IMG/VR virus record: IMGVR_UViG_2684622579_000002
DNA from: a virus
Taxonomy: Duplodnaviria > Heunggongvirae > Uroviricota > Caudoviricetes
Strand: one strand, 5' to 3'
DNA length: 16,029 bases
Shown here in pieces: positions 1 to 14,330 of the stretch (position 1 is the first letter of the stretch; every line of letters starts with the position of its first letter). The position numbers and the translations under genes were made by a program. Below the pieces are notes generated by a model. It saw only the letters and a program-made list of their open reading frames with translations. It made no database searches and was not told where the DNA came from.

Positions 1-555
1 ATGCTTATTGGCTATGTACGTGTATCAACAAATGACCAGAATACCGATCTACAACGTAATGCGCTGAACTGTGCAGGATGTGAGCTGATTTTTGAAGACA
101 AGATAAGCGGTACAAAGTCCGACAGACCAGGACTGAAAAAGCTGCTCAGGACATTATCGGCAGGTGACACGCTGGTGGTCTGGAAACTGGACCGACTGGG
201 GCGCAGTATGCGGCATCTTGTCGTGCTGGTGGAGGAGTTGCGCGAACGAGGCATCAACTTTCGTAGTCTGACGGATTCAATTGATACCAGTACCCCAATG
301 GGGCGCTTTTTCTTTCATGTGATGGGTGCCTTGGCTGAAATGGAGCGTGAACTGATTGTTGAACGAACAAAAGCTGGACTGGAAGCAGCTCGCGCACAGG
401 GACGAATTGGTGGACGTCGCCCCAAACTTACACCAGAACAATGGGGGCAGGCCGGACGATTAATTGCATCAGGCGTTCCTCGCCAGAAGGTGGCGATCAT
501 CTATGATGTTGGTATATCGACACTGTATAAGAAGTTTCCGGTCGGAGATAAATGA
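1..555 (+). CDS. pin: Serine recombinase, DNA invertase of the Pin/Hin/Gin family (complete, 184 aa)
   Basis: N-terminus MLIGYVRVSTNDQ with the catalytic Ser context typical of resolvase/invertase enzymes; conserved RLGR and GRFFFHVMGALAEMERELI motifs; C-terminal HTH-like region (IASGVPRQKVAIIYDVGISTLYK). ATG at 1, TGA at 553-555. Confidence 0.85.
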   Translation: MLIGYVRVSTNDQNTDLQRNALNCAGCELIFEDKISGTKSDRPGLKKLLRTLSAGDTLVVWKLDRLGRSMRHLVVLVEELRERGINFRSLTDSIDTSTPMGRFFFHVMGALAEMERELIVERTKAGLEAARAQGRIGGRRPKLTPEQWGQAGRLIASGVPRQKVAIIYDVGISTLYKKFPVGDK

Positions 556-596
556 AACCGTAGCACGTCGTATGCAAGAAGATCGTGCTGCGGTTT
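555..596. repeat. Hairpin repeat copy A (about 13 bp stem with one G-T wobble, 16-nt loop tcgtatgcaagaagat) between convergent pin and GIY-YIG genes
   Basis: Positions 558-580 (ccgtagcacgtcgtatgcaagaa) match 1582-1605 (ccgtagccacgtcgtatgcaagaa) except for one inserted base. Stem arms 555-567 and 584-596 are complementary. Confidence 0.6.
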
Positions 597-615
597 ATGC
601 TTATCACTTAAAGAC

Positions 616-1485
<870 letters not shown>

Positions 1486-1580
1486 CTAAGCCTTTGAATT
1501 TACATAGTACAAAAAAGATACTTTTCCTCATAATGTGAATTAATTTTATGTTTCGTTTGATGATTGGACCGGTCTCGAAA

Positions 1581-1614
1581 CCCGTAGCCACGTCGTATGC
1601 AAGAACGTGCTACG
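1581..1614. repeat. Hairpin repeat copy B (9 bp stem with one bulge, 13-nt loop tcgtatgcaagaa) upstream of the GIY-YIG gene
   Basis: Direct-orientation near-identical copy of the element at 555-596; stem arms 1584-1592 and 1606-1613. Confidence 0.6.
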
Positions 1615-1885
1615 ACTGGCTGGTGAACTTCCGATAGTGCGAGTATTGAATGATTTCCAACTGTTATCGATTTTGCGTATTTTTTGCATGAGAGGATTTT
1701 TACCTCCTCCCGCCGATCCTCCATGGCTTTACGCCTGTGTCTCTGGTCTGCTATGTGCCAATAGCGGACATTGCTAACATTATCTAATACACAACAAAAA
1801 ATGTCAGTCTATATGATATCATCTACTGTCTTTTAAATTCCCCACCTGTCTCAGTTATTAGTGTTAGATAAGGAATCAAAAAATT

Positions 1886-2560
1886 ATGAGAGCATATAAA
1901 TTTAGGTCGGCTTCTCAAATAGCATTTACCCTAGATATAATTTTTAATCGTAGGCTTTTTTGCTCTGACTGGAAAATGTTGAATGACCCAATGGAAGGGA
2001 TGTTTGTTTTCTCTCATCAAACATCTGATGGTTACGACTATAAAAAAGAAATTCAGCAGATAATAGAAGAAAAGAAACGGCTTAAGGTTTGTTCTCTTTC
2101 AGCTACATATGAGTCTCATTTACTTTGGGCTCACTATGCTGGGGGGTTTGATGGTTGCGCTATCGAAATTGAAATCCCAGACAATCATCACAGTATTAAA
2201 CAAATTGAATATAGAGGTGTATTTGCAAATTTAGCAATGCCCAATATTTATAGTCCTGATGAACTTGCTAACCAAGTTTTATCCTCTAAATATCGAGAAT
2301 GGGAATACGAACAGGAAGTTAGGATTTTGCAAACGAATGAGTGGTTTTACTTAGATAAACCAGTTCGACGAGTAATAGCAGGGCATAGAATGCCTTCGGC
2401 ATTATTTGAAGCCATGAATATAATATGCAACTCGATGGGGATTGAATTTTGCCGTACTGGAATTGGTGATGAGGGGATTGATGCCGATTATGTTGAGCCC
2501 TCAAAAATTCTAACGCCGAATAATCATCTTGACTGGGATGTACTAAAAAATGACCGATGA
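1886..2560 (+). CDS. Hypothetical protein, DUF2971-like (224 aa)
   Basis: ORF with ATG at 1886, AGGA 11 nt upstream, AT-rich codon usage. LWAHYAGG and EWEYEQEVRIL motifs resemble what I recall of the DUF2971 family; this is unverified. Confidence 0.5.
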   Translation: MRAYKFRSASQIAFTLDIIFNRRLFCSDWKMLNDPMEGMFVFSHQTSDGYDYKKEIQQIIEEKKRLKVCSLSATYESHLLWAHYAGGFDGCAIEIEIPDNHHSIKQIEYRGVFANLAMPNIYSPDELANQVLSSKYREWEYEQEVRILQTNEWFYLDKPVRRVIAGHRMPSALFEAMNIICNSMGIEFCRTGIGDEGIDADYVEPSKILTPNNHLDWDVLKNDR

Positions 2561-2699
2561 ATTAGAGATTTATATGGTTAGCAGAGTGTAAGGCTCAAGA
2601 TTCCCACGCTCAATAACCAATTGATTGTGAATAACTTTCACCCACAATTGCTCGATATGAAACTATGAGCAATTGTGATGTAAATGTATGCAACAGGTT

Positions 2700-3326
2700 T
2701 TATATCTTATTCCCAAGTATTAACTGTGTTGAGCGAGCCATAATTCTAAATATAAATGGCATACCCTCTGTTAGCTCATCGAGTGTTGGCGTTCGCCTGC
2801 TTGCTTCCAAAAGTATTGAACGCAGAAACTCAACTTCTGGATCACATGCAATTTCTTCATCCAATGCCTTAAGTTTGCCTTTTATTTCTTTTATCTCTGA
2901 CAAACTATGGTTGAGGGTTTCACTTCCCTTTATTTCTGAAAGTATACGTCTTTCATGGTAATTAAGTTGCTCACGGAAAAACAATGCCATACTGGCTTTC
3001 TTTACTAAAAGCTCCATTTCCTTTCTTTTTTTCTCAAGATCTAAGATTTCTTCTTGAGTTGAGTTTTTATTCGTTTTTAGGGATTTTAACTCACTAATAG
3101 TCTTAGTTATGGACTCTAATGAAGTGGCCTCAAGCTGTTCTAAATCTGACTGTGTAATAGCAGGCTTCGACAATGAATAGATGCAAACAATAGTCATTAC
3201 AAAACCTACAATAGCCATCCCATTTAAATAAATTGGCAGTTCCAATTTATTTAAATACGCAAATAAACCACCTATAATGAAATAAGCCATACTTAACAAA
3301 ACCAGTACAGTACAAAACCGCCTCAT
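2700..3326 (-). CDS. Membrane-anchored coiled-coil protein (208 aa), function unknown
   Basis: Two N-terminal hydrophobic segments (VLVLLSMAYFIIGGLFAYL and GMAIVGFVMTIVCIYSL) followed by a charged heptad-like region (EEILDLEKKRKEMELLVKK). GAGG SD 6 nt upstream of the ATG at 3324-3326. Confidence 0.55.
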   Translation of the reverse strand: MRRFCTVLVLLSMAYFIIGGLFAYLNKLELPIYLNGMAIVGFVMTIVCIYSLSKPAITQSDLEQLEATSLESITKTISELKSLKTNKNSTQEEILDLEKKRKEMELLVKKASMALFFREQLNYHERRILSEIKGSETLNHSLSEIKEIKGKLKALDEEIACDPEVEFLRSILLEASRRTPTLDELTEGMPFIFRIMARSTQLILGNKI

Positions 3327-3754
3327 TCTAACCTCGTTAAATTTTTTTAGTTTATATGGTTAACCTACTAAAACCTTGTTCCCAGCATTTCGAGCAGGAA
3401 CTTTACGTTCCTCACTTGAGCAAGCTACTGCGGCAACACAATATCTTAACTTAATAAACTTAACTAGCAAGCTACTCATAACGTCCGCTCTTCGCTCATA
3501 ACAGACATAAACTTCAGTTATGGCATAAAGGTATGCATGCTGGGTGGGGAAAGTATGAAGGAAAAGAAGACTGCTGCGCCGTTTGTCGTCACGTTTATCT
3601 TCATTGGCTATGCAAGTCGTAATACAAGGTGGGACAAAACTGAGACACATAAGGCCTCGCAATGGCTTGCAAGGCTTTACATGTTTTGATGTAGTGGGAC
3701 GTGTGAGCGCAGTGTTGATGGGGTAATGCTTTGAATTAGAAGCGGATTCTTATA

Positions 3755-3800
3755 ATTCGTAATGCGAAGGTCGTAGGTTCGACTCCTATTATCGGCACCA
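3755..3800 (+). other. 46-nt 3' fragment of a tRNA-Thr(CGU)-like gene (anticodon loop through CCA) lacking the 5' half: probable att core or direct repeat at an island junction
   Basis: attcgtaatgcgaaggtcgtaggttcgactcctattatcggcacca contains an anticodon loop with CGT, a T-arm GGTTCGACTCC and an acceptor 3' strand TATCGGC-A-CCA. No complementary GCCGATA acceptor 5' strand is present upstream, so this is not an intact tRNA. Confidence 0.7.
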
Positions 3801-3964
3801 TCACCTAGTTTTCCCAAGTCAACCCACATCAACAAAATCATTTAAAAACATATATATTACGTTATTTTCATACGTTTGAGGTCAACCCTTGTCTCTTGAA
3901 ATCAACACGCGGTTGGGGGCACAATCAGGGGCATGTTCTGTTCGGTCTAGGAAATGTGCCCCCA

Positions 3965-5155
3965 ATGATGCTGAATGCCCGCAAGGTTGAAGCTGCGAAA
4001 GGAAAAGAGAAGAGCTACAAGCTGTTTGATGGAGGTGGCCTATACCTTCAGGTCGAACCTAATGGCTCGCGTTACTGGCGTATGAAATACCGTTTTGCTG
4101 GTAAAGAGAAACGATTGTCCTTTGGTGTTTATCCAACAGTCACACTTGCTGATGCCAGACAAAAACGAGAAGACGCGAAGAAACTACTCGCAGCAGGTGA
4201 AGATCCCGGCGAAGTCAAAAAAGCCAAAAAGCAGGCTTTAAATGCAGCGATTGAGACACTTAACCCATTCAGAGAAGTGGCGTTAGAGTGGCACAAAATG
4301 AAATCACCCAAATGGTCTGAGGGCTATGCTTCCGACATCATTGAGGCATTCGAGAAAGACATTTTCCCGCATATTGGGCACAGACCTATAGCTGATATTC
4401 AGCCCCTTGAACTGCTTGAAGTTCTGAGGTTGATAGAAGCTCGAGGCGCTATGGAGAAAGCGAAGAAAGTCCGTCAGCGATGCGGTGAAGTTTTTCGCTA
4501 TGCCATCGTAACGGGTAGGGCAATCTACAATCCGGCACCGGATCTTGCCAGTGCGATGCAAGGACATGAAGCAGTCCACTATCCATTCCTCAAAGCCAAC
4601 GAACTACCGGAGTTCTTTAATGCCCTTAATTCTTATTCAGGAAGTCCAATTGTATTGTTGGGGGCGCATTTACTTATCCTGACAGGTCTACGAACTGGAG
4701 AACTACGAGCAGGTGAGTGGCGAGAGGTGGATTTTGATAATGCGGTGTGGGAGATCCCAAAAGAACGTATGAAAATGCGTAGGAGCCATATTGTCCCGTT
4801 GTCAAAACAAGCATTATCCCATCTCAAAAGTTTGAAAGAACTAACTGGGAACTACCCGCTGATGTTCCCTGGACGCAACGATCCTAGCAAATTTATGAGT
4901 GAAGCAAGCATTAATCAGGTGTTTAAACGTATTGGATATGCAGGGCGTGTTACGGGGCATGGTTTCAGGCATACGATGAGTACAATCCTACATGAGAAAG
5001 GATTTAACAGCGCTTGGATTGAAACCCAGCTTGCTCATTCGGACAAAAACTCTATTCGTGGAATTTATAACCATGCCCAATATCTCGAAGGGAGAAGAGA
5101 AATGATGCAATGGTATGCTAATTATTTATCTGAGCTAATTGGTACTCATAAATGA
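3965..5155 (+). CDS. int: Tyrosine recombinase, P4-type integrase (about 396 aa)
   Basis: N-terminal MLNARKVEAAKGKEKSYKLFDGGGLYLQV is the characteristic P4-integrase N-terminal arm; C-terminal catalytic region has HGFRHTMST and a downstream tyrosine context (IRGIYNHAQY). Immediately follows the tRNA 3' fragment. Start placed at ATG 3965/3968 rather than the TTG at 3896 given in the ORF track. Confidence 0.9.
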   Translation: MMLNARKVEAAKGKEKSYKLFDGGGLYLQVEPNGSRYWRMKYRFAGKEKRLSFGVYPTVTLADARQKREDAKKLLAAGEDPGEVKKAKKQALNAAIETLNPFREVALEWHKMKSPKWSEGYASDIIEAFEKDIFPHIGHRPIADIQPLELLEVLRLIEARGAMEKAKKVRQRCGEVFRYAIVTGRAIYNPAPDLASAMQGHEAVHYPFLKANELPEFFNALNSYSGSPIVLLGAHLLILTGLRTGELRAGEWREVDFDNAVWEIPKERMKMRRSHIVPLSKQALSHLKSLKELTGNYPLMFPGRNDPSKFMSEASINQVFKRIGYAGRVTGHGFRHTMSTILHEKGFNSAWIETQLAHSDKNSIRGIYNHAQYLEGRREMMQWYANYLSELIGTHK

Positions 5156-5976
5156 ATATTTTAAAAATTAATAATACTGATTCTCTGCTCAGAGATTACT
5201 ACCAGTTGGATGAAGCTTCAGAAAAAATTGGTTGTAGTGAAAAGGATATACTCTGGTTTGCCAGAGAACGAGATGTAGAGCTATGCATGGAATTCCATGA
5301 TGATGAGTATGATGTTTCATGTGGTTTGAAGATTGATGGTCAAATGGATGAGTTCTTATCTAATCTGAAATATTTACCACGAGATAGAAATGGCAATATT
5401 ATGTTGTCAGACTTAAGTTCTATAAGAATCCCTGATGAAGATAATTTAATTGATAAAAATGGTTTTATTCGATGTTTCATATCCGGTTTATGGGCTGTTG
5501 ATTATGAATATAAAGATCTGTTAGTTAAGCATGAGGGGCAACCGGATTCTTGGCCTATTCATTTTCTACTGGCGGGTACGCCTAATATAAATTGTAAGGT
5601 AATTCTTTATGTAAATTATGATGAAAAAGAAAATTATTATCTTTTTGAGGTTTTGTGGATTACAAAGGTACAGATTCAAAAATTCATTGATATAGTCTTA
5701 TGCGAACAAAAGCGGATAAAAAACGCCAATAAATATAAATCACAATCTGAGGCGCAAAAACAAAAACATGCTGTTCCTCGAGCTGAAATACTCATGGCTA
5801 TTATTTCGCTCTATCATCGTGATATGAGGCTAAGAAGAGAGAGTCCAGCAGCGATAGCTGATTATCTTTTTCAACATGCCAGTGAGTTCTGGCCTAAGAC
5901 CGGAGAACCGCCTTTGAGCTATGATACTGTTGTTAGTTTGCTACGTAGTTGCATGAAAAACATTAAGTTTAACTAA
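5152..5976 (+). CDS. Hypothetical protein (274 aa), AT-rich, translationally coupled to the integrase
   Basis: ATGA overlap with the integrase stop (ATG 5152, TGA 5153-5155); AT-rich codon usage unlike the GC-rich replication module; no motif I can assign. Confidence 0.6.
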   Translation: MNILKINNTDSLLRDYYQLDEASEKIGCSEKDILWFARERDVELCMEFHDDEYDVSCGLKIDGQMDEFLSNLKYLPRDRNGNIMLSDLSSIRIPDEDNLIDKNGFIRCFISGLWAVDYEYKDLLVKHEGQPDSWPIHFLLAGTPNINCKVILYVNYDEKENYYLFEVLWITKVQIQKFIDIVLCEQKRIKNANKYKSQSEAQKQKHAVPRAEILMAIISLYHRDMRLRRESPAAIADYLFQHASEFWPKTGEPPLSYDTVVSLLRSCMKNIKFN

Positions 5977-6101
5977 ATATTAACAATTATTGTGGCTAAT
6001 GATTTTGGATTTTTTTCATTAGTCACATTTTTCTCATTTATAACCTATGTTTTAATTTTCCGTGTTGAAGCCAATAGACTTAGATAAACGGAGAATGATG
6101 A

Positions 6102-6392
6102 ATGTTATCTAAACATGATAATACTACTTTGCAACGACCTTCAATGGATTCTCTGATCGATATGAAGTTTATTACTTCCGATTGTTTATTAAGTGATAAA
6201 TGGATTTATCGATTGATTTCTCTGAATCGCTTTCCAAAACCTATAAAAATAGGTCGGATGTCACGATGGCGCGCTGCTGATTATTATAAGTGGCGAGATG
6301 GGTTTGAAGAAAACTCAGGTCAACATTTTGAGGGAATGAGAAATAAGGCAAGAGCAATTAATAAAGGGAATAGATTATCACCTACTCCCTAA
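6102..6392 (+). CDS. alpA: AlpA-family phage transcriptional regulator (small DNA-binding protein)
   Basis: IYRLISLNRFPKPIKIGRMSRWRAADYYKW resembles the AlpA/phage regulatory protein HTH signature; GGAG SD 8 nt upstream of ATG 6102. Shorter starts at 6144 or 6162 are possible. Confidence 0.7.
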   Translation: MLSKHDNTTLQRPSMDSLIDMKFITSDCLLSDKWIYRLISLNRFPKPIKIGRMSRWRAADYYKWRDGFEENSGQHFEGMRNKARAINKGNRLSPTP

Positions 6393-6424
6393 GCCTTAAT
6401 TGATAGTTAGTAATATTTAACTGA

Positions 6425-6598
6425 TTAGCCTTTAGGGTCAATCCCGCGTGATTGGAGTTCTTTGCGTAAAATTCTTTTAATCCAAGTTGCCAACGCGCTA
6501 TCTCCATCTTTGCGCATTTCGTTTTCGAGTTGCAACCTAAAATCGTCGGTAAGACGCATTTGGAATGGTGGAGAACGTTTCTCTTGTGGTGTTGACAT
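6425..6598 (-). CDS. Arc/MetJ-type ribbon-helix-helix DNA-binding protein (57 aa), absent from the supplied ORF track
   Basis: Hand-translated minus-strand ORF MSTPQEKRSPPFQMRLTDDFRLQLENEMRKDGDSALATWIKRILRKELQSRGIDPKG; the PPFQMRL segment resembles the Arc N-terminal beta-strand motif (PQFNLR). Start codon overlaps a palindromic operator. Confidence 0.6.
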   Translation of the reverse strand: MSTPQEKRSPPFQMRLTDDFRLQLENEMRKDGDSALATWIKRILRKELQSRGIDPKG

Positions 6599-6638
6599 GG
6601 TAATTACCCTAGAATATGATGACTACATGGTAATTACC
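6595..6638. promoter_or_regulatory. Two copies of the 14-bp repeat ACATGGTAATTACC, each containing the perfect palindrome GGTAATTACC, 30 bp apart: putative operators
   Basis: Palindromes at 6599-6608 and 6629-6638; the first overlaps the start codon of the Arc-like gene, the second lies in its promoter region, within the divergent intergenic region 6599-6729. Confidence 0.55.
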
Positions 6639-6666
6639 ATTGTAAGTATAGTTCGCTTGTAAAAGC

Positions 6667-6701
6667 AATGCCCGATTGTGCGGGAACACAAATCGGGCAT
6701 T
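6667..6701. promoter_or_regulatory. 14-bp-stem inverted repeat (AATGCCCGATTGTG / CACAAATCGGGCATT, loop cgggaa) in the leader of the replication operon
   Basis: Arms 6667-6680 and 6687-6701 are complementary with one bulge; located 29 nt upstream of ATG 6730; no U-tract follows. Confidence 0.45.
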
Positions 6702-6729
6702 TAACCAACCGTTATAAGAGGTAACGAAG

Positions 6730-6906
6730 ATGGCTAAACAGAAGTGTACCTGGTTATTTGCGGCGATCAACCGCAGTCAACGCAATGCCCGTCCTGTGAT
6801 GTTAAGGATCACCGCAGATAACGAGCGGTCAGCGCGGCGCAGACTTGCCCCGGACTATGTACTGAGCTTTGCCGGGCGCATTCCCTGCGGAGGTGAACAT
6901 GCGTAA
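6730..6906 (+). CDS. Small protein (58 aa), first gene of the replication operon; possibly Icd-like
   Basis: Hand-translated MAKQKCTWLFAAINRSQRNARPVMLRITADNERSARRRLAPDYVLSFAGRIPCGGEHA; AAGAGG SD 8 nt upstream; stop overlaps the next gene start (ATGCGTAA). Family assignment is from memory and weak. Confidence 0.5.
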   Translation: MAKQKCTWLFAAINRSQRNARPVMLRITADNERSARRRLAPDYVLSFAGRIPCGGEHA

Positions 6907-7258
6907 TTATCCGCACCCCGGCGAACGCTGGCAGCATGAACGTGGCTGGACGGTCACGATTATCCGATTAATAGAAGCCTCGCCCTCTGTGGCGCTGGTT
7001 AATCCTGAATTCAGCTGTGAAGTGCTGATACGTCATGACAGCGACAACCAGCTTTCTTCCTGCCCTCTGGCATGGTTTGAACAGCGGTATACGCGCCTGT
7101 TTGATGTACCGCTCTTTAAGCCTGCACCAGCTCCTGCAGGCGGTAGTGGTTCCGGCCCGCTGACACTGCATCCGTCTGTGCTATTTATCCGCTGGCGGGA
7201 GCGTAGCATATGGCGTTCTGCTGAGCCTGACGACGGTCACTATTCAAAGTTTCTCTGA
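6899..7258 (+). CDS. Hypothetical protein (120 aa)
   Basis: ATG at 6899 preceded by GGAGGT; GC-rich codon usage consistent with neighbours; the ORF track extended it to an upstream alternative start at 6869. Confidence 0.5.
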   Translation: MRNYPHPGERWQHERGWTVTIIRLIEASPSVALVNPEFSCEVLIRHDSDNQLSSCPLAWFEQRYTRLFDVPLFKPAPAPAGGSGSGPLTLHPSVLFIRWRERSIWRSAEPDDGHYSKFL

Positions 7259-7289
7259 CAAAATACCGCTGAAAACGGAGTAATCCACG

Positions 7290-7574
7290 ATGAATATTTC
7301 AAACGGGCACAACGGTGCTCAGGGCCACACTTTGCCTGAAAAACACAATACCGGTGCTTTTGCCTATGGGTTGTCAGAGGACAGTTTCGGAAAGCTGACC
7401 CGCGCAAGAAATGCCTGCGACATGCTCCAGCTTCTCTTTTCTGAATACCCGTCTCAGGCCGGAGCACTGGACGCTGGCTGTGCGCATGGTGTCGCCGCGC
7501 TGATGGAGTACCTGCTGGCAGATTTGACGGATATTGCACACAGTTGCGCACTGATTGAAGGAGGTGCCAGATGA
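7290..7574 (+). CDS. Hypothetical protein (94 aa)
   Basis: ATG 7290 with GGAG 8 nt upstream; stop overlaps the next start. Confidence 0.5.
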   Translation: MNISNGHNGAQGHTLPEKHNTGAFAYGLSEDSFGKLTRARNACDMLQLLFSEYPSQAGALDAGCAHGVAALMEYLLADLTDIAHSCALIEGGAR

Positions 7575-7954
7575 ACCAGCCGCAGGTTTCCATTTTCCCG
7601 GCAGAAATGACCACCGCGCTTTACCGGCGGGCTATTGCTTCAGCATGGCGGCAGAAAATGCTGAACGAAACTGGCAGTGATCAGTATGGTCCGCACAGCC
7701 TGACGGTGGAGCGTATTGAAATGGCCATTGCGCTGCATATCGAGTGCGTACTGATTAACGAGTACGGCGAAGTGCAGGGCGCCGCTACCGCGCTGGCACT
7801 GCTGACTGACATGCTGGAGCCGTCACTGCTGACCGCGCCGCCGGTACTGACCGCGCGCGGCTGTGAAGTGATGGCGGAGATGTACCGCACGCTTCCGGCG
7901 GCCTTTGATGACTTCTGCAGTACCGGTGTGACGTTGTATGAGGGGGAAGTATGA
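7571..7954 (+). CDS. Hypothetical protein (127 aa)
   Basis: ATG 7571 with GGAGGT SD; ATGA overlaps at both ends indicate translational coupling into the primase gene. Confidence 0.55.
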   Translation: MNQPQVSIFPAEMTTALYRRAIASAWRQKMLNETGSDQYGPHSLTVERIEMAIALHIECVLINEYGEVQGAATALALLTDMLEPSLLTAPPVLTARGCEVMAEMYRTLPAAFDDFCSTGVTLYEGEV

Positions 7955-10623
7955 CAATACGGACGGTTACGCAGATTTCAGCCGCCGCACGGGGGAAATG
8001 GCCCGTTATTCTGCAGATGCTGCGTATTGATGTACCTGAAAACGGCAGGCACGGTCCCTGCCCGAAATGTGGGGGCAAGGATCGTTTTCGCCTTGATGAC
8101 CTTGACGGGCGCGGGACGTGGATCTGCAGCCAGTGTGGCAATGGTGACGGTCTGGATCTGGTTAAGCTCGTAACCGGTTACAGCGTCAGAAAGGCTGCGC
8201 AGGAGGTGGCGCAGGTGCTTAATGTGCCGGATGTGCAGGAACTGCCTGTTAAGCCTGCCAGACAAAAAGCCCCTAAACGAGACATGGGTCTTACCGTGGC
8301 GGCGCTGATGAAAGAGAGCCACACGGGAGAAAGCGCCTATCTGACAGGAAAAGGGTTCGCCGGATACCCGGCCTCTCTGACCGGAAGCGTGCAGCATATC
8401 AGCGGTAAGGATTTTCCTGCCGGTTCCCTGCTGTTACCACTCACGACCAACACCGGAGCCGTGACCGGTGCACAGCTTATCGCCCCGACGGGTGAAAAAA
8501 GCATACTGCCCGGCAGCACGATGAAAGGCGCGTTTGTGTCGCTCAGCCCGTTACCGTCTGAACCACCGGTACAGGTGGTGATTACCGAAGGTTACGCTAC
8601 GGCGCTGACGGTAAGCCAGCTCACTGCCGGATGCGTAGTGGCTGCCATATCTGCGGGCAACCTGCCCAATGTGGCGCAGTCGCTGCGGGCACGCTGGCCT
8701 GAGGTAAAAATTATCATCGCCGGTGATAACGATTTTCAGGACGGGGGTGAGAATCCCGGCAGAGCCTTTGCTGAACGGGCGGCAAAAGCTGTTGGCGGCT
8801 GGATGACGCTGCCACCAGGAGAGATTAAGGCTGACTGGAATGACTTTCATCGGGAGCACGGTATTACCCGTGCCCGTGAAGCCTTTCGCAACGGTCTGGT
8901 ACTGTGCGGGGAAGGCCGCACGCAACTGCCGCACGGGTTCCGTCTTACCCAGGAATATCTCTGGTATGAAAAGCAGGTACAGCGCAACGGTGAGACGGAG
9001 ATCCAGAACGTCAAAATATGCAGCCCGCTGCGCGTGACGGCAATTACCTGCGATGCCGATGGCGGTAACTTCGGACGACTGCTGGAATGGGAAGATACGT
9101 GGGGTGAGTGTCGCCGCTGGGCGATGCCAATGGAAATGCTGAGCGGCAGTGGTGAGGAACTGCGCCGGGTACTGCTGGTTAACGGGCTGTCTTATATCAG
9201 CACCACCGGTGAGGCACGCGCACGCCTGATGGAATATATCTCACTGTGTAAACCGGAACGCCGCGTGACCTGCGTCAGTCGTACTGGCTGGCATGGTCAG
9301 GTTTACGTCCTGCAGGATGAGGTCAGCGGTGAAGGTGCAGAGGGTGTCATTCTCCAGACCACTTCCGTGCAGGGGCGTGATTTCCGCGTGTCGGGCACAA
9401 CAGAGGAATGGCGGGAGCATGTATCCCGCTACTGTACCGGCAACTCCCGCGTGGCATTTGCTGTCAGCCTGGCCTTTGCTGCACCACTGTTACGGCTGGT
9501 TGGTATGGACGGCGGCGGCTACCACCTCAAAGGGGAATCGACAGACGGTAAGACCACCACCATGAAAGCGGCAACCTCCGTCTGCGGCGGGCCTGACTAC
9601 TGGCAGACATGGCGGGCCACCGGCAACGCGCTGGAGGGATGCGCCAGCCGCCGTAACGATGCCGCCATGATGCTTGATGAGATCCGGGAAGTTGACGGAC
9701 GCGAGGCAGGCAATATCGCCTACATGCTGGCAAACGGTCAGGGCAAGGGCCGTGCCGGTACGGACGGTGAGCTGCGTACCCGTAAGCAGTGGCGCCTGTT
9801 GTTCTTTTCAACTGGCGAGTTGTCTCTGACCGAACATGCGGCAAAGGCCGGTGAGCGTACTTTTGCCGGGATGGAAGTCAGGATGATCCAGATCCCCAGC
9901 GATTCCGGGAAGTTTGGCGTTTTTGAGGAGCTGCACGGCTTCGACAGCGGCAAGGCTCTGGCAGAGCATCTTGAATGGGCCACGTCCTGCTACTACGGTT
10001 CGCCGTTCCGGGAGTGGCTGAAAGCACTGACCGCTGATCTTAACGGACTAACGGCACAGGCAAAATCGCTGATGAAGGAATATGCTGCCGCCCTGACTCC
10101 GAAAGATGCAGGCAATCAGGTGGGCCGGGCTGTGAACCGCTTTGCACTGGTGGCGATGGCAGGTGAACTGGCAACCCGTCTGGGTATCACCGGCTGGCCT
10201 GAGGGTGAAGCACTGCGGGCAACCCGCGTCTGCCTGAACGCATGGCTGAAAGATCGCGGGCACACCGCCAATCAGGAAGATATCGCCGCACTGGAGCAGG
10301 TTCGCAGTTTCTTTACCGCGAATCAGTACAGCCGCTTTGCAGACTGGTATGACGAGCGCAACCGCCCCGGCAATATGGTGGGCTGGCGCAGGGTGGAGAA
10401 AGGCAGTACCGCGCAGGGCACGGAAGCTGTCACTACGTTCTATGTCATGCCGTCCGGCTGGAAAGAAATCTGCAGGGGATTTGACCCGCGCAAGGTGGCG
10501 CGTCTGTGCGCAGATCGTGGATACCTGCTGCCCTCCACTGATGGCAAACTCCAGACAACCATTCGCCCGCCAGAGATGAATCCCCGCAGGCTCTATGTCT
10601 TCAACAGCGAGGTGCCGGGTTAA
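7951..10623 (+). CDS. P4-alpha-like primase-helicase (890 aa): zinc ribbon, TOPRIM and C-terminal P-loop NTPase domains
   Basis: N-terminal CPKCGG...CSQCG zinc-binding motif; TOPRIM-like VVITEGYATALTV and IIIAGDNDFQD; Walker A-like GESTDGKTT. GAGGGGGA SD upstream of ATG 7951. Confidence 0.9.
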   Translation: MTIRTVTQISAAARGKWPVILQMLRIDVPENGRHGPCPKCGGKDRFRLDDLDGRGTWICSQCGNGDGLDLVKLVTGYSVRKAAQEVAQVLNVPDVQELPVKPARQKAPKRDMGLTVAALMKESHTGESAYLTGKGFAGYPASLTGSVQHISGKDFPAGSLLLPLTTNTGAVTGAQLIAPTGEKSILPGSTMKGAFVSLSPLPSEPPVQVVITEGYATALTVSQLTAGCVVAAISAGNLPNVAQSLRARWPEVKIIIAGDNDFQDGGENPGRAFAERAAKAVGGWMTLPPGEIKADWNDFHREHGITRAREAFRNGLVLCGEGRTQLPHGFRLTQEYLWYEKQVQRNGETEIQNVKICSPLRVTAITCDADGGNFGRLLEWEDTWGECRRWAMPMEMLSGSGEELRRVLLVNGLSYISTTGEARARLMEYISLCKPERRVTCVSRTGWHGQVYVLQDEVSGEGAEGVILQTTSVQGRDFRVSGTTEEWREHVSRYCTGNSRVAFAVSLAFAAPLLRLVGMDGGGYHLKGESTDGKTTTMKAATSVCGGPDYWQTWRATGNALEGCASRRNDAAMMLDEIREVDGREAGNIAYMLANGQGKGRAGTDGELRTRKQWRLLFFSTGELSLTEHAAKAGERTFAGMEVRMIQIPSDSGKFGVFEELHGFDSGKALAEHLEWATSCYYGSPFREWLKALTADLNGLTAQAKSLMKEYAAALTPKDAGNQVGRAVNRFALVAMAGELATRLGITGWPEGEALRATRVCLNAWLKDRGHTANQEDIAALEQVRSFFTANQYSRFADWYDERNRPGNMVGWRRVEKGSTAQGTEAVTTFYVMPSGWKEICRGFDPRKVARLCADRGYLLPSTDGKLQTTIRPPEMNPRRLYVFNSEVPG

Positions 10624-10649
10624 GGCTTTGCGTGAGTCTTATTTATTAA

Positions 10650-10845
10650 GGGTAACAGGTGAAACAGGTGGAACAACCGTATTTTACAGGGCTGAATCTG
10701 TTCCACCTTCTGAAATAGTGAGGTGGAACAGATGTAACGCCAGCCAATCCGCTGTTCCACCTTGTTACCCGCGATGTTCCACCGGTGCAGTGTATATAAA
10801 TGCTTTATAAAACAAATGGGTAACACATGTTTCACCTGTTACACC
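10650..10845. repeat. Iteron cluster: five copies of the 9-mer GGTGGAACA/TGTTCCACC in alternating orientation, bounded by a 15/16-bp inverted repeat, with an adjacent AT-rich tract
   Basis: GGTGGAACA at 10667-10675 and 10722-10730; TGTTCCACC at 10699-10707, 10753-10761 and 10775-10783; the forward-reverse pair recurs with 55-bp periodicity. Outer inverted repeat GGTAACAGGTGAAACA (10651-10666) versus TGTTTCACCTGTTACA (10828-10843). AT-rich tract gtgtatataaatgctttataaaacaaatg at about 10790-10817. Confidence 0.65.
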
Positions 10846-10933
10846 GCATCAGGGACATAAAGCAGACTGAAACAGAGGGCATTTTTATCTGGCTGGCTTT
10901 CATAGCCACGTCTGAATAACCGCAAGCGCCCGT

Positions 10934-10951
10934 TGTACCAGCCACCACACA
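10934..10951 (+). promoter_or_regulatory. TGT-N12-ACA dyad (TGTACCAGCCACCACACA), candidate Ogr/Delta-dependent late promoter element for the sid/psu/ogr operon
   Basis: The motif centre lies about 80 bp upstream of ATG 11024, compatible with the roughly -55 placement of this element in P2/P4 late promoters. Confidence 0.4.
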
Positions 10952-11023
10952 CTGAGCACCGATAGTGTGCTTGTGTCAGCCACGACACAATTGACGTAAC
11001 GAACCAACCCGACAGGAGAAGTC

Positions 11024-11767
11024 ATGAACAACACCGCAGTGAATAACAACCTTTCCACTTTTCCGGCTGTAACGCAGCGGGCACTGGAAACCATGAACAC
11101 AGCCAGAAACGCATGGCTTGAAGCACGTCGTCAGCAGAAAGCGGCAGCGGATAATATTGCGACAATCCGCCAGCGTCGCGCTGAAATGGAAGCCACGACG
11201 AACACACTGAATGAGGAGTGGCGCACGCTGTTTCGTGAAAGTCAGGGCGTGGTCTCAAAGGAAATGAAAAAACTGCGCACGGAAATTGCGCTGGGACGAG
11301 AAACTCTTGAGGATTTTGATGAGCTGCTGGAGGCTCAGGAAAGCGAAAATGCACTTTTGCCGCAGAAAGCTGCGGAATTAGCCGGAAAGTATATCCACGC
11401 GCATAACATCCTTGTGGATATTCGCGCAAAACAAATCTGGGAAGATTTTATGCAGTCGCATGGAAAAGCGCTTATTCAGACGCTGAGCCTGCTTAAATCC
11501 ACAATGGGCCGGGAAGCCAGTGCCGTTGTGGGTGTGGTGAATTCAGTTAATGACCCGGACACAGTGCTGAAAGACTTTATTCATAAACATATCACCAGAC
11601 CGGCTCTGGCTAACGATGCGATGCCTGAGCAGGACCCGGTGTTTAAACTGGCGGGAGTTGCCCCGGATTATGCGGCGCGTCTGGATTTCAGTAATCAACT
11701 CTCTCCGGCAGCTATGCATAAAATTAAGGTTCGTCAGGAACTTGCTGAGAAGGAGAAAGCAGTATGA
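11024..11767 (+). CDS. Sid/Psu-family protein (247 aa); by size and position probably a Sid-like capsid size-determination scaffold
   Basis: GGAG SD 5 nt upstream; shares NAWLEARRQQKAAAD and DFMQSHGKAL motifs with the downstream Psu-like protein; ATGA coupling to the next gene. Confidence 0.6.
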   Translation: MNNTAVNNNLSTFPAVTQRALETMNTARNAWLEARRQQKAAADNIATIRQRRAEMEATTNTLNEEWRTLFRESQGVVSKEMKKLRTEIALGRETLEDFDELLEAQESENALLPQKAAELAGKYIHAHNILVDIRAKQIWEDFMQSHGKALIQTLSLLKSTMGREASAVVGVVNSVNDPDTVLKDFIHKHITRPALANDAMPEQDPVFKLAGVAPDYAARLDFSNQLSPAAMHKIKVRQELAEKEKAV

Positions 11768-12315
11768 CGGCCCGAGGCACGCCTGACCAGGCACTTACCA
11801 GTTTTCGGAATGCCCGTATTCTGTGGGCCGGACATAATGAGAGCCGAAAAGCCGTTGAACAACAGATAACATCTCTCCTCGCTGCCACAGAAAAACCAGC
11901 AGATTATGCCCGACAGCTCGAATTACTGCGGGAACGTCTGGATGTGCTGAAATGGCAAATTAACTGTGCTGCGCGCGAATGCATTTACTCGCAGCATTTA
12001 CTGATGGAGGCCTGCACAGAAGCCGCTCTCAGCAATTTTATGCAGGCGAATGGGGCAGCCCTGACATCTGCACTGGCTCCGTTCCTGAAGGGGCGCGGAG
12101 GGGTTGACGTTGCGTCCCGTATATTACGCAGTGCTCTGGTTCGCCAGCTGGCAATAACACCGCCTGAAATTGCCGGGGATTATCGTGAGATCCTGGATGA
12201 ATCCGGTTTGATGCCTGACCCCGGGATGATTCGTGATTGCCAGGGTTCTTACACCCCGGCACAACATCTGCGTTTTCAGCAACGCCTGAATGACATTAAC
12301 GATATACAGGAGTGA
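11764..12315 (+). CDS. psu: Psu-like polarity suppression / capsid decoration protein (183 aa)
   Basis: LKWQINCAARECIYSQH and FMQANGAALTSALAPFLKG match my recollection of P4 Psu (VRKWQVNQAAGRYI and FMQQHGTALAAALAP); similar length to P4 Psu. Confidence 0.65.
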   Translation: MTARGTPDQALTSFRNARILWAGHNESRKAVEQQITSLLAATEKPADYARQLELLRERLDVLKWQINCAARECIYSQHLLMEACTEAALSNFMQANGAALTSALAPFLKGRGGVDVASRILRSALVRQLAITPPEIAGDYREILDESGLMPDPGMIRDCQGSYTPAQHLRFQQRLNDINDIQE

Positions 12316-12320
12316 TATTA

Positions 12321-12593
12321 ATGGCACTTAAATGTCCGGAATGCGGTACAGTTGCACACGCCAGAACAGCAGCCTATGAAGCTCCGTCAGTTAAACGCTC
12401 GTGGTATCAGTGCCAGAATCTGGAATGTTCCTGCACATTTACGGCACTGGAGAGTGTGGATAAGATAATCATGAAACCCCGGCGCAATGAACAGCTATCA
12501 GACAAAGCACAATCCCCGGAAAAACAACAGCAAACGCTCAATCGCTATGGCTCCGCGTCAAAACTGTCAAGCCGTCAGCAGATTCCTGTCTGA
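12321..12593 (+). CDS. ogr: Ogr/Delta-family zinc-finger late transcription activator (90 aa)
   Basis: CPECG...HART...YQCQNLECSCTF matches the Cys4 pattern of P2 Ogr (CPLCQ...HART...HQCQNVNCSATF); AGGAG SD 8 nt upstream of ATG 12321. The ORF track started it at the GTG at 12312. Confidence 0.8.
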   Translation: MALKCPECGTVAHARTAAYEAPSVKRSWYQCQNLECSCTFTALESVDKIIMKPRRNEQLSDKAQSPEKQQQTLNRYGSASKLSSRQQIPV

Positions 12594-13122: not shown

Positions 13123-14082
13123 ATGCTAACCAGGGCTGAAAATATAAGAAAAATCACAAGCTATTTAGCTATTCTCTCAAGAGAGGTTGAGATTAGTGCC
13201 TCCCTCAATCTTTTGGATATCAACGTTCAAGCGGAATCTTTTTATAGAGATTTCTTAAACTTATGTTATGGATATAATTTAAGAAATACCAATAGTGAAG
13301 AGCAAAACTACCAAGCAATAGATCTTGCTGATGAAGATCGGAAGATTGCTATACAAGTAACTTCAACTTCTGACTTGGGAAAAATTAAGAATACAGTTGA
13401 TGGATTTATAAAAAGTAAGCAATATGAAAAATATGATAGACTAATTGTACTGAATATAACTGAAAAGAAAAAGCACAGATTGAAAGAGTATGGAATAGCC
13501 GGGTGCTATGTAATTAATATCAAAGATGATGTATGGGATTATAAGGATATAATTAGAAAGATAAACGATTTGAATGATTGTGATATATCAACAATATGCT
13601 CATTTTTGGAACGTAATATTAATACTAAAGCTGCTGATAAACCGCCGAAAGAAGTCACAACTATGTTTGCGATGATTGAATTATTGAGTGATGATGCTCA
13701 CCCATTGGCAGGAAATGGATTTATTGAAGAGCCTAATCCTGAAAATAAAATATATAAAAGATTTTCAGATTATTCAGAGCGGTTGATTGGCTTATATACT
13801 GGGTTAGCTCCATTATATAGTGGGATATTTAAGTCAATAAAAGAACAGAGCGATATTGGTATCGTAAGGTACCAAAAGATGAGTTTGTATTTAGAGTCAT
13901 TTAGTGATAAGGTCTTAAGAAGCCATGGTGGAGATCCTATCTTGGCGCTTAATTATTTAAAAGAATATTTTTCTAAACAACTGAGCCAGAGAAATGTAGA
14001 TTACGATGAAACAGCTATCAAATTTTTCTTAATTGAGAATTTAATTGCATGTAACGTCTTTCCTAATTCGGAGATTCTTTGA
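13123..14082 (+). CDS. Hypothetical protein (319 aa), putative effector of a three-gene system; N-terminal region possibly SMEK-like
   Basis: AGGGA SD 6 nt upstream; AT-rich codon usage. N-terminal LNLLDINVQAESFYRDFLNLCYGYNL...IAIQVTSTSD resembles what I recall of SMEK-domain proteins of ABC-three-component systems; unverified. TGATG overlap with the next gene. Confidence 0.65.
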   Translation: MLTRAENIRKITSYLAILSREVEISASLNLLDINVQAESFYRDFLNLCYGYNLRNTNSEEQNYQAIDLADEDRKIAIQVTSTSDLGKIKNTVDGFIKSKQYEKYDRLIVLNITEKKKHRLKEYGIAGCYVINIKDDVWDYKDIIRKINDLNDCDISTICSFLERNINTKAADKPPKEVTTMFAMIELLSDDAHPLAGNGFIEEPNPENKIYKRFSDYSERLIGLYTGLAPLYSGIFKSIKEQSDIGIVRYQKMSLYLESFSDKVLRSHGGDPILALNYLKEYFSKQLSQRNVDYDETAIKFFLIENLIACNVFPNSEIL

Positions 14083-14330
14083 TGTTAAGTTTTTTTTCGA
14101 AAGATGAGGATTTGACAAAATCCCCTCCTGTTGTAGGGGCTAAAATTCTTAATTTATTTGACGAAACAAAAAAAGAAAAAATTAGTATTTTCGATTTAGC
14201 AAAAGAATTAAAGAAAAACAACTCTCTAGGAGTGCGTGCAATTTATTTTGGAATGGTCTTTCTTTATACTCTTGATCTTATCGATTTCGATGAGCCATAT
14301 GTGATAAATAAAAATGTTAAGAATAAATAA
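14082..14330 (+). CDS. Small protein (82 aa), putative middle/adaptor component
   Basis: ATG 14082 overlaps the upstream TGA (14080-14082); its 3' end overlaps the ATPase start by 17 nt; AT-rich. Confidence 0.55.
   Translation: MLSFFSKDEDLTKSPPVVGAKILNLFDETKKEKISIFDLAKELKKNNSLGVRAIYFGMVFLYTLDLIDFDEPYVINKNVKNK

What the first reader, a model, noticed from the sequence alone, without database searches (positions are those of the whole stretch)
5152..5976. AT-rich unknown gene translationally coupled to the integrase
The ATG overlaps the integrase stop codon (ATGA), and the gene's composition differs sharply from the neighbouring GC-rich genes. A cargo gene co-translated with int is unusual. 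It may be a second variable cargo site (defence or anti-defence), or an integrase accessory factor such as a directionality factor, although 274 aa is large for that role.
Basis: partly seen in the sequence, partly recalled or inferred. Interest (0 to 1): 0.55.

Follow-up and report, generated by a model that had tools for sequence, protein, structure and literature searches.

The report
Conserved unknown gene between int and alpA
The AT-rich gene after the integrase is real and uncharacterised, and it keeps the same place (integrase, this gene, alpA) in phage satellites across several orders of Gammaproteobacteria, so it looks like part of the satellite's control module rather than swappable cargo.

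Summary
ORF 5152-5976 (274 aa) starts at an ATGA overlap with the integrase stop and has 34% GC.

The window is an E. coli P4-like satellite at tRNA-Thr (thrW). The gene ("X") matches no Pfam, PHROG, PADLOC or NCBIfam model and no PDB sequence. Fold searches gave only weak hits. It is under purifying selection (dN/dS about 0.1).

- **Family:** small, about 45 clusters, in Enterobacterales, Aeromonas, Rheinheimera and Arsukibacterium.
- **Position:** in about 30 loci examined it lies integrase -> X -> alpA, 99-139 nt upstream of alpA. This holds in satellites with different attachment sites, replication modules, capsid-hijack modules and defence cargo.
- **Cargo reading not supported:** X stays in place while the real hotspot varies.
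- **Directionality-factor reading disfavoured:** X does not track the integrase (Int 84-97% identical where X is 24-31%). The tight int-X junction is lost in distant members.
- **Evolution:** X tracks the satellite backbone, undergoes allele replacement, and is the most AT-rich gene of the module in every lineage.

The AlphaFold model shows an N-terminal winged-helix-like unit, a variable middle and a conserved C-terminal helical domain.

Best guess, at moderate confidence, is a DNA-binding regulator of the int/alpA lysogeny-induction switch. A lysogeny-expressed anti-phage factor remains a serious rival.

The parts
3755..3800 (+). Attachment-site copy: only the 3' 46 nt of tRNA-Thr(CGT), containing the core TCCTATTATC. 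This is the left end of the satellite, which sits in a tandem island array.
   Evidence: ARAGORN finds no tRNA in the window. The alignment to the intact thrW of strain CD09 is identical from ATTCGTAATGCG... to CACCA and onward. There is one exact match of the 3' end. The core sequence is as reported for a thrW satellite in PMC11773190.
3829..3858 (+). Candidate promoter of the int-X operon (TCAACA-18-TATATT, 9 of 12).
   Evidence: Consensus scan only. No + strand promoter-like site lies between here and the X start, which is the basis for treating int-X as one transcript (inference).
3965..5155 (+). Tyrosine integrase, 396 aa from the RefSeq start (the longest ORF starts at 3896), with Arm-DNA-bind_3, Phage_int_M and Phage_integrase domains.
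   Evidence: Pfam E 1e-25 to 4e-35. RefSeq annotation of identical DNA.
5152..5976 (+). Gene X, 274 aa, an uncharacterised family. Residues 12-62 (nt 5185-5337) are predicted as a beta-alpha-alpha-beta-beta winged-helix-like unit. Residues 63-171 (nt 5338-5664) form a variable beta-rich middle. Residues 172-202 are a long helix. Residues 205-270 (nt 5764-5961) form the most conserved, helical C-terminal domain.
   Evidence: ORF and translation. Homologues and alignments. AlphaFold2 model, mean pLDDT 77. No family hits. dN/dS about 0.1.
5991..6027 (+). Inverted repeat or hairpin directly after the X stop (TGTGGCTAATGA-N13-TCATTAGTCACA), followed by AUUUUUCUCAUUU. It is terminator-like, or a protein-binding site.
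   Evidence: RNA fold -15 kcal/mol, z = -4.4. The arms are conserved and the loop varies in Pantoea, Erwinia and Citrobacter. Other clades carry their own inverted or direct repeats at the same place.
6055..6096 (+). Stem in the alpA 5' leader that pairs the alpA Shine-Dalgarno sequence (UUUUCCGU with ACGGAGAA).
   Evidence: The SD is paired in the minimum-energy fold in all 15 X-bearing loci folded, with different stem sequences in different clades.
6102..6392 (+). alpA-like helix-turn-helix regulator (96 aa), the invariable downstream neighbour of X.
   Evidence: Weak Pfam AlpA hit, E 4e-4. RefSeq calls it a 'helix-turn-helix transcriptional regulator'. The gene after X is AlpA-like by Pfam or tblastn in the other loci; the one exception is L030, whose 61-aa neighbour has no Pfam record.

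Best explanation
X is a core protein of the satellite's lysogeny/induction control module (int - X - alpA), not cargo. It is made together with the integrase from the int promoter while the satellite is integrated. In E. coli this happens by termination-reinitiation at the ATGA overlap. It most likely binds DNA through an N-terminal winged-helix-like unit and acts on the adjacent alpA control region or the lytic switch. The fast-changing middle region would then serve as a specificity or sensor part, and the conserved C-terminal helical domain as a constant interaction or oligomerisation part. In function this resembles the master repressors of Gram-positive satellites.

Shown: the gene is real and under selection; its position next to alpA is conserved; it is inherited with the satellite backbone and not with the integrase; it undergoes allele replacement.

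Inferred: co-transcription with int, DNA binding, the target, and the direction of regulation.
For: - **Position.** In about 30 loci from Escherichia/Shigella, Citrobacter, Pantoea, Erwinia, Brenneria, Aeromonas, Arsukibacterium, Rheinheimera and metagenomes the order is integrase -> X -> small regulator on one strand. The regulator is AlpA-like in all but L030, where it has no Pfam record. X ends 99-139 nt before that gene's start.
- **Independence from the rest of the element.** The order holds across different att sites (tRNA-Thr CGT and TGT, tRNA-Sec, tRNA-Gly, tRNA-Arg, and two kinds of site beside smpB). It also holds across different replication modules (DUF927 primase or DnaB helicase), different hijack modules (sid/psu/delta; P2-type capsid plus GPO scaffold; HK97-type capsid) and different defence cargo.
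- **Inheritance.** X identity follows the backbone and not Int. Window versus L016: Int 84%, X 31%, primase 66%. Window versus L005: Int 64%, X 59%, primase 91%. IMG/VR loci have Int 90-97% identical to the window's but X only 24-31%. The homology break lies about 30 nt before the int stop.
- **Selection and exchange.** dN/dS is about 0.1, but in close element pairs X is far more diverged than its neighbours. L007 versus L015: X dS 1.16, against int 0.30, alpA 0.14 and primase 0.21. That is allele replacement, as seen for specificity or immunity determinants. The N-terminal and middle parts change and the C-terminal domain stays (95% versus 70-75%).
- **Signals.** No + strand promoter-like site lies between the int promoter candidate and X. 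A stable hairpin with a U-rich tail follows X.
- **Literature.** For Gram-negative satellites it is stated that a master repressor is not known, and that alpA is switched on by the helper phage through an unidentified route (PMC6092414).
Against: - No operator can be assigned to X. The repeats upstream of alpA could equally be AlpA's own autoregulatory sites or a terminator, and the half-site does not recur elsewhere in the window above chance.
- X is not universal. A sibling satellite with a 98% identical backbone carries an unrelated 212-aa gene in the slot. Other thrW elements have no gene there.
- A small ribbon-helix-helix-like ORF and two palindromes at the strongest promoter of the region (6592-6620) could already provide the repressor function.
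- X is co-directional with alpA rather than divergent from it, unlike Stl.
Confidence: 0.4

Rival explanations
1. X is a lysogeny-expressed accessory (moron-like) gene. It would be a single-protein anti-phage, superinfection-exclusion or anti-defence factor expressed constitutively behind int, and unrelated to the satellite's own regulation.
For: - Strongly AT-rich in every lineage (GC3 0.22-0.39).
- The fastest-evolving gene of the module, with allele replacement.
- Present in only 66 of 5426 complete E. coli genomes.
- The slot holds an unrelated gene in a sibling element and is empty in others.
- Accessory genes between the integrase and the regulator are described for PICI satellites (PMC10085698).
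- In canonical P4 the gene after int (cII) belongs to the gop-beta-cII anti-phage system (PMC9122126).
Against: - No hit to 5027 PADLOC defence models.
- No recognisable enzymatic or effector domain.
- It stays fixed while the real hotspot, at the other end of the element, turns over.
- It keeps the same position and a constant spacing to alpA down to about 20% identity across orders and across satellite types. That is unusual for cargo.
- It is absent from phage and plasmid records.
Confidence: 0.27
2. X is an integrase accessory protein, that is a recombination directionality or architectural factor. It would be made in fixed ratio with Int and bind att-arm DNA to steer integration versus excision.
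For: - Stop/start overlap or 0-1 nt spacing to int in three enterobacterial clades.
- The junction is kept although Int alleles are exchanged.
- The predicted N-terminal topology is the one shared by Xis/AlpA/MerR-type winged helices.
Against: - X does not co-vary with Int or the att site. The same Int (90-97% identical) is paired with X alleles of 24-31% identity, and similar X alleles with Int of 61-64% identity and a different tRNA target.
- In distant members the gap to int is 94-184 nt, or up to 445 nt with two small ORFs between, while the spacing to alpA is constant.
- Closely related integrases work without X.
- An AlpA/Vis-type gene, annotated in P4 as excisionase and regulator, is already present.
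- X is three to four times larger than typical tyrosine-recombinase directionality factors (own knowledge).
Confidence: 0.12
3. X is a decaying remnant or a mis-called ORF with no function.
For: No annotation anywhere; every source calls it a 'hypothetical protein'.
Against: - An 825-nt open frame in 34% GC DNA.
- Full-length homologues of 250-310 aa in many genera.
- dN/dS of 0.06-0.13.
- A confident multi-domain AlphaFold model.
- Only occasional IS1 insertions.
Confidence: 0.01

Closest known systems
Stl / Rpr master repressors of SaPIs and other Gram-positive PICI satellites
   Same: A mid-sized protein (about 250-300 aa) encoded on the integrase side of the element and expressed in the integrated state. 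It has an N-terminal DNA-binding-type unit, a divergent middle and a more constant C-terminal part, and alleles differ strongly between otherwise similar elements. The Stl architecture is from my own knowledge. Its role and position are as described in PMC6092414.
   Different: No sequence or fold relation was shown. X is co-directional with, and upstream of, the activator gene alpA rather than divergent from the lytic operon. DNA binding, repression and binding of a helper protein are all untested for X.
AlpA / P4 Vis / Xis-type winged-helix regulators and excisionases (Pfam PF05930, PF12728)
   Different: X is 274 aa with two further regions. It has no Pfam hit and no hhalign similarity to AlpA or Vis. 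It always co-occurs with a separate AlpA gene, so it is not a replacement for it.
P4 cII (Pfam PF26915), part of the gop-beta-cII anti-phage system
   Same: The gene directly downstream of, and co-oriented with, int. It is similar in size (264 aa).
   Different: No homology (hhalign probability 0.1%; no Pfam hit). cII lies in the variable hotspot, whereas X lies between int and alpA and is conserved. One Pantoea element has both X and a cII-family gene.
Accessory genes in the int-regulator interval of PICI-type satellites and cryptic prophages (for example yfjH between intA and alpA in CP4-57)
   Same: The same interval, with unknown function.
   Different: YfjH is on the opposite strand and is unrelated (hhalign probability 0.3%). 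X is a conserved family with fixed orientation and spacing.

Membership tests
Variable defence/cargo hotspot of P4-like satellites | Gene content at the locus differs between otherwise closely related elements | tested here: not met
   Elements with six different hotspot cargoes all keep an X homologue after int. However, a sibling with a 98% identical backbone has an unrelated 212-aa gene in the slot, so the whole int-X-alpA block is exchanged as a unit.
Variable defence/cargo hotspot of P4-like satellites | Match to a known or candidate defence protein model | tested here: not met
   PADLOC gives 0 families at E<=1 for X. Genes at 616-1440, 1886-2560, 13123-14082 and 14314-16029 do match.
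Variable defence/cargo hotspot of P4-like satellites | Confers resistance to phage infection | not testable with these tools
   Needs plating assays.
Recombination directionality factors / excisionases of tyrosine integrases | Inherited with its cognate integrase and attachment site | tested here: not met
   Int 84-97% identical with X 24-31%; Int 61-64% with X 58-60%; correlation of the pairwise identities only 0.45. X occurs with several tRNA targets (tRNA-Thr CGT and TGT, tRNA-Sec, tRNA-Gly, tRNA-Arg) and at sites beside smpB.
Recombination directionality factors / excisionases of tyrosine integrases | Small winged-helix protein belonging to PF05930, PF12728 or related families | tested here: not met
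   274 aa. No Pfam hit in any of 17 members. hhalign to AlpA and Vis is negative.
MerR-like / winged-helix DNA-binding fold (N-terminal unit only) | beta-alpha-alpha-beta-beta topology with structural similarity to solved members | tested here: inconclusive
Stl/Rpr-type satellite master repressor | Encoded on the int side and expressed in the integrated state | tested here: inconclusive
   Position is met. Expression is inferred only, from the overlap with int and the lack of its own promoter-like site.
Stl/Rpr-type satellite master repressor | Divergent from the lytic operon, with operators in between | tested here: not met
   X is co-directional with alpA and the early genes. The divergent small gene at 6425-6598 fits this feature better.
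Stl/Rpr-type satellite master repressor | Binds operator DNA and is released by a helper-phage protein | not testable with these tools
   Needs EMSA or ChIP and interaction assays.
P4 cII family (PF26915) | Sequence or profile similarity | tested here: not met
   No Pfam hit. hhalign probability 0.1%.
YfjH (CP4-57 int-alpA interval gene) | Sequence or profile similarity | tested here: not met
   hhalign probability 0.3%.

The most novel reading that the evidence does not exclude
X is the missing helper-sensing master regulator of AlpA-controlled Gram-negative satellites. It would sit on the alpA control region through its N-terminal winged helix and be released, or activated, when its rapidly diversifying middle domain meets a helper-phage protein. 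This would explain how helper phages switch on alpA, and why X alleles are swapped like immunity determinants.
Probability: 0.2. Interest if true: 0.75.

Novelty: new variant of a known kind. Interest (0 to 1): 0.45.

Why it matters
P4-like and PICI-type satellites are present in a large share of enterobacterial genomes and carry much of their anti-phage arsenal. How Gram-negative satellites stay silent, and how a helper phage turns on their activator AlpA, is stated in the literature to be unknown (PMC6092414). A conserved, unannotated protein with a DNA-binding-like unit sits directly upstream of alpA in several satellite types and is exchanged like a specificity determinant. That makes it a concrete, easily testable candidate for this control step. 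If it turns out instead to be a single-gene anti-phage factor, it would be a new defence family that current defence-finding models miss. Either way, it should be treated as part of the satellite's left-end module and not as hotspot cargo.

Tried and rejected
- **Family libraries.** Pfam, PHROGs, PADLOC and NCBIfam on X and on 17-22 family members gave no meaningful hit. Four of 22 members weakly match phrog_7144, which has no known function.
- **Solved structures by sequence.** A PDB profile search gave only chance hits to antibody chains, E > 0.1.
- **Profile comparisons.** YfjH, P4 cII, AlpA and P4 Vis were all negative. The 212-aa protein in the same slot of the leuX sibling was also negative.
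- **Other collections.** tblastn against phage and plasmid records found no match. Rfam found nothing in the window.
- **Literature.** Searches on the RefSeq accessions and on PICI induction found nothing about this family.
- **Further operator copies.** The inverted-repeat half-site does not recur in the window above chance.
- **Diverse alignment as a query.** The first attempt to scan genomes with the most diverse alignment failed for lack of a conserved stretch, so I used a narrower alignment.
- **Recent foreign acquisition as the cause of low GC.** I rejected this because the low GC is kept in all lineages, including at 20-30% protein identity and in a 64% GC Aeromonas host.
Full report
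**Observation.** The integrase ORF ends ...CAT AAA TGA at 5155, and the next ORF starts at the ATG at 5152, so the two share ATGA. The ORF 5152-5976 encodes 274 aa, and no ORF of 50 aa or more overlaps it in another frame or strand. Its GC is 0.34 (GC3 0.28). That compares with 0.45 for int, 0.35 for alpA and 0.59 for the primase. The gene is therefore part of an AT-rich tract of about 4800-6500 set against a GC-rich backbone, not an island between two GC-rich genes.

**What the window is.** Identical DNA occurs in E. coli chromosomes downstream of proA at tRNA-Thr (thrW). The gene order is att, int, X, alpA-like regulator, a small minus-strand ORF, icd-like, three small ORFs including DUF5375, a TOPRIM/DUF927 primase, a sid-like gene, psu and delta. 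These are followed by a variable defence locus, here an SMEK-domain protein plus a DUF2326/PDC-M68B protein. This is a P4-like satellite, but its gene order differs from canonical P4 (PMC8628076). The window carries only the 3' 46 nt of the tRNA (3755-3800), so the satellite lies behind another island that holds PD-T4-3 and PDC-S31 defence genes.

**The gene is real but unannotated.**
- X has full-length homologues at 54-94% identity in Enterobacter, Citrobacter, Pantoea and Erwinia. Its own 90% cluster has 1562 members, and the exact sequence is seen on 901 contigs. Every source names it 'hypothetical protein'.
- A profile search of 1.84 billion representative proteins found only 44 relatives at E<=0.001. 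Most are 250-330 aa and match across most of the profile; the rest are short fragments.
- A second profile search found 45 clusters, extending to Aeromonas, Arsukibacterium and Rheinheimera.
- dN/dS is 0.06-0.13 in all pairs that are not saturated.
- In complete E. coli genomes X is present in 66 of 5426, always single-copy, chromosomal and next to an integrase.
- It has no match in phage or plasmid records.

**No known family.** Pfam, PHROGs, PADLOC and NCBIfam give nothing for X or for 17-22 family members. A PDB sequence-profile search gives only chance hits.

**Predicted structure.** The AlphaFold2 model has mean pLDDT 77 and shows four regions:
- a beta-alpha-alpha-beta-beta unit at residues 16-62 (pLDDT 84-88);
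- a beta-rich middle region;
- a long helix at 172-202;
- a helical C-terminal domain at 210-270.

**Genomic context across the family.** In every locus recovered, X lies between a tyrosine integrase of the Arm-DNA-bind_3 type and a small regulator that is AlpA-like in all but L030, all on one strand.

| Loci | Attachment site | Element type |
|---|---|---|
| E. coli, Shigella, Citrobacter wls619 | tRNA-Thr(CGT) | P4-like |
| Pantoea, Erwinia, Citrobacter youngae | tRNA-Sec | P4-like, other cargo |
| Pantoea agglomerans | none found in the locus | degraded element |
| Uncultured Enterobacterales (MAGs) | tRNA-Thr(TGT) | satellite with P2-type capsid, GPO scaffold, Ash and primase |
| Brenneria | tRNA-Gly | primase-bearing element, other genes not scanned |
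| E. coli sibling satellite | tRNA-Arg | 293-aa homologue (hhalign 99%, E 1e-18) |
| Aeromonas, Arsukibacterium, Rheinheimera | beside smpB | primase-type or DnaB-type elements |
| Further Aeromonas and metagenomic elements | not determined | various |
| 14 IMG/VR contigs | not determined | various |

The distance from the X stop to the alpA start is 99-139 nt throughout. The distance from int to X varies more:
- -4, 0 or +1 nt in three enterobacterial clades;
- 4 and 30 nt in two others;
- 94-184 nt in four distant loci;
- 422-445 nt, with two small ORFs between, in the two DnaB-type elements.

The constant feature is therefore the place upstream of alpA. Tight coupling to int is a property of the enterobacterial branches.

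**X goes with the backbone, not with the integrase.**
- Window versus L016: Int 84%, X 31%, primase 66%.
- Window versus L005: Int 64%, X 59%, primase 91%.
- Eight IMG/VR loci have Int 90-97% identical to the window's Int but X only 24-31% identical, with primase about 62%.
- The DNA homology between such pairs ends about 30 nt before the int stop. Integrases are thus exchanged against X at a breakpoint in the last codons of int, while the tight junction is retained.
- In E. coli, 333 genomes share the icd-to-DUF5375 backbone, most at 95% identity or more. Only 62 share the int-X-alpA left block. The others carry different left blocks. One has the distant X homologue (L021). Another has an unrelated 212-aa AT-rich gene in the same slot (L020).
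- Related thrW integrases (about 71-72% protein identity) are followed directly by alpA or by other genes.

**Mode of evolution.** In close element pairs X is much more diverged than its neighbours at both synonymous and non-synonymous sites.
- L007 versus L015: X dS 1.16 and dN 0.117, against int 0.30 and 0.015, alpA 0.14 and 0.028, primase 0.21 and 0.013.
- L016 versus L017: X is saturated, against int dS 0.31.

This pattern means allele replacement by recombination, not relaxed constraint. The N-terminal and middle parts change while the C-terminal domain is kept (95% versus 70-75% identity in L007/L015). X is also the most AT-rich gene of the module in every lineage. GC3 is 0.22-0.39, including in an Aeromonas genome whose flanks are 64% GC. 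Low GC is therefore a maintained property and not a mark of recent import. I could not test the possible reasons, such as silencing by nucleoid proteins or low expression.

**Signals.**
- The only + strand promoter-like site ahead of int is at 3829-3858. None lies between it and X.
- Directly after X there is a 12-bp-stem hairpin with a U-rich tail (-15 kcal/mol, z -4.4). Its arms are conserved and its loop varies in the P4-like clade. Other clades carry their own inverted repeats at the same place, and two carry direct repeats. The element could be a terminator, an operator or both.
- The alpA leader then forms a stem that pairs the alpA ribosome-binding site. The stem is present with different sequences in all 15 X-bearing loci folded.
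- Downstream, a ribbon-helix-helix-like 57-aa ORF on the minus strand diverges from the best promoter match of the region. That promoter is bracketed by two copies of ATGGTAATTACCAT.

**Interpretation.** The cargo reading fails its own test. X is retained while the true hotspot turns over, and the family keeps position, orientation and spacing across orders and satellite types.

The directionality-factor reading is weakened in three ways. There is no co-inheritance with Int and att. Coupling is lost in distant members. An AlpA/Vis-type gene is present next door, annotated in P4 as excisionase and regulator.

The data fit best a protein that belongs to the control module of the satellite. It would be made with Int in the integrated state, most likely bind DNA, and act on the alpA switch or the early promoter. 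Its variable part would set specificity. This resembles the Stl/Rpr master repressors of Gram-positive satellites, whose three-part architecture I cite from my own knowledge. For Gram-negative satellites the literature states that no master repressor is known, and that alpA is induced by the helper through an unknown route (PMC6092414; PMC11773190).

I give this reading 0.4. The points against it:
- no family membership, no assignable operator and no experiment;
- X is not universal among alpA-bearing satellites;
- a small RHH-like gene may already fill the repressor role.

A lysogeny-expressed anti-phage or exclusion factor remains plausible at 0.27. It is supported by AT-richness, fast turnover, patchy distribution, the replaceable slot, known accessory genes in this interval of PICIs (PMC10085698), and P4 cII after int being part of a defence system (PMC9122126). 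An integrase accessory factor gets 0.12. The remaining weight is for functions not considered.

**Novelty and score.** The family is unannotated and has no detectable relative of known function or structure. Its likely job, as a regulator or accessory protein of a satellite's lysogeny module, is of a known kind. I rate it a new variant of a known kind, with interest 0.45. It is not spectacular on present evidence, but it gives a specific candidate for an open question in satellite biology and corrects the cargo interpretation.

Noticed in passing
window 6055-6096 (also L005, L006, L007, L010, L014-L018, L021, L023-L026 just upstream of alpA): The alpA 5' leader forms a stem that pairs the alpA Shine-Dalgarno sequence. 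The stem is kept with different sequences in different clades: UUUUCCGU/ACGGAGAA, CCUCCGU/ACGGGGG, CACUCCA/UGGAGUG, CUGCCGUGUU/AACACGGCAG, UACCCC/GGGGUA and CUCCU/AGGAG. This suggests translational control of the satellite's activator.
   Followed up: partly
window 5991-6027: A 12-bp-stem inverted repeat lies right after the X stop, followed by a U-rich tail (-15 kcal/mol, z -4.4). Its arms are conserved and its loop varies in related satellites. Other clades have their own inverted repeats, and two have direct repeats, at the same place. It could be a terminator or a protein-binding site.
   Followed up: partly
window 6425-6640: A conserved 57-aa minus-strand ORF with a ribbon-helix-helix-like sequence diverges from the best sigma-70 match of the region (TTGACA-17-TATGAT, 6592-6620). 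That promoter is bracketed by two exact copies of ACATGGTAATTACC (6595-6608 and 6625-6638), which hold the palindrome ATGGTAATTACCAT. It is a likely repressor/operator pair for the early operon.
   Followed up: no
window 1-3800: The satellite is not next to an intact tRNA. Only the 3' 46 nt of tRNA-Thr are present (3755-3800). The upstream DNA is another island with PD-T4-3 (616-1440, minus strand) and PDC-S31 (1886-2560), so this is a tandem island array at thrW.
   Followed up: partly
window 13123-16029: The defence hotspot after delta holds an SMEK-domain protein that matches the N-terminal part of an Aga_REase-PNTD model, an 83-aa ORF and a DUF2326/PDC-M68B protein that runs off the window. 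The same satellite in another strain carries DRT3 there instead.
   Followed up: no
window 3965-12593 as a whole: The gene order int-X-alpA-icd-...-primase-sid-psu-delta-hotspot, all on one strand, differs from canonical P4. In P4 int is followed by cII, beta and gop, the sid/delta/psu operon lies on the opposite strand, and the vis-to-alpha operon runs to the far att site (PMC8628076).
   Followed up: no
window 5100-5155; L035-L042, L016: Integrase alleles are exchanged against the rest of the element at a breakpoint about 30 nt before the int stop. Int is 90-97% identical to the window's in contigs whose X is 24-31% and whose primase is about 62% identical.
   Followed up: yes
L020 4346-4984 (E. 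coli 675SK2, leuX satellite with 98% identical backbone): An unrelated, equally AT-rich (GC 0.31) 212-aa hypothetical protein occupies the int-alpA slot. It has no Pfam hit and a long 377-nt repeat-rich spacer to alpA. It may be a functional analogue of X.
   Followed up: partly
L016/L017 9183-12259, L028 8290-11504: X-bearing satellites in uncultured Enterobacterales and in Aeromonas encode a P2-family major capsid protein and a GPO-type scaffold, fused in Aeromonas, together with Ash and a DUF927 primase. The Aeromonas element also encodes an Ogr/Delta regulator. This is a capsid-encoding relative of P4-like elements.
   Followed up: no
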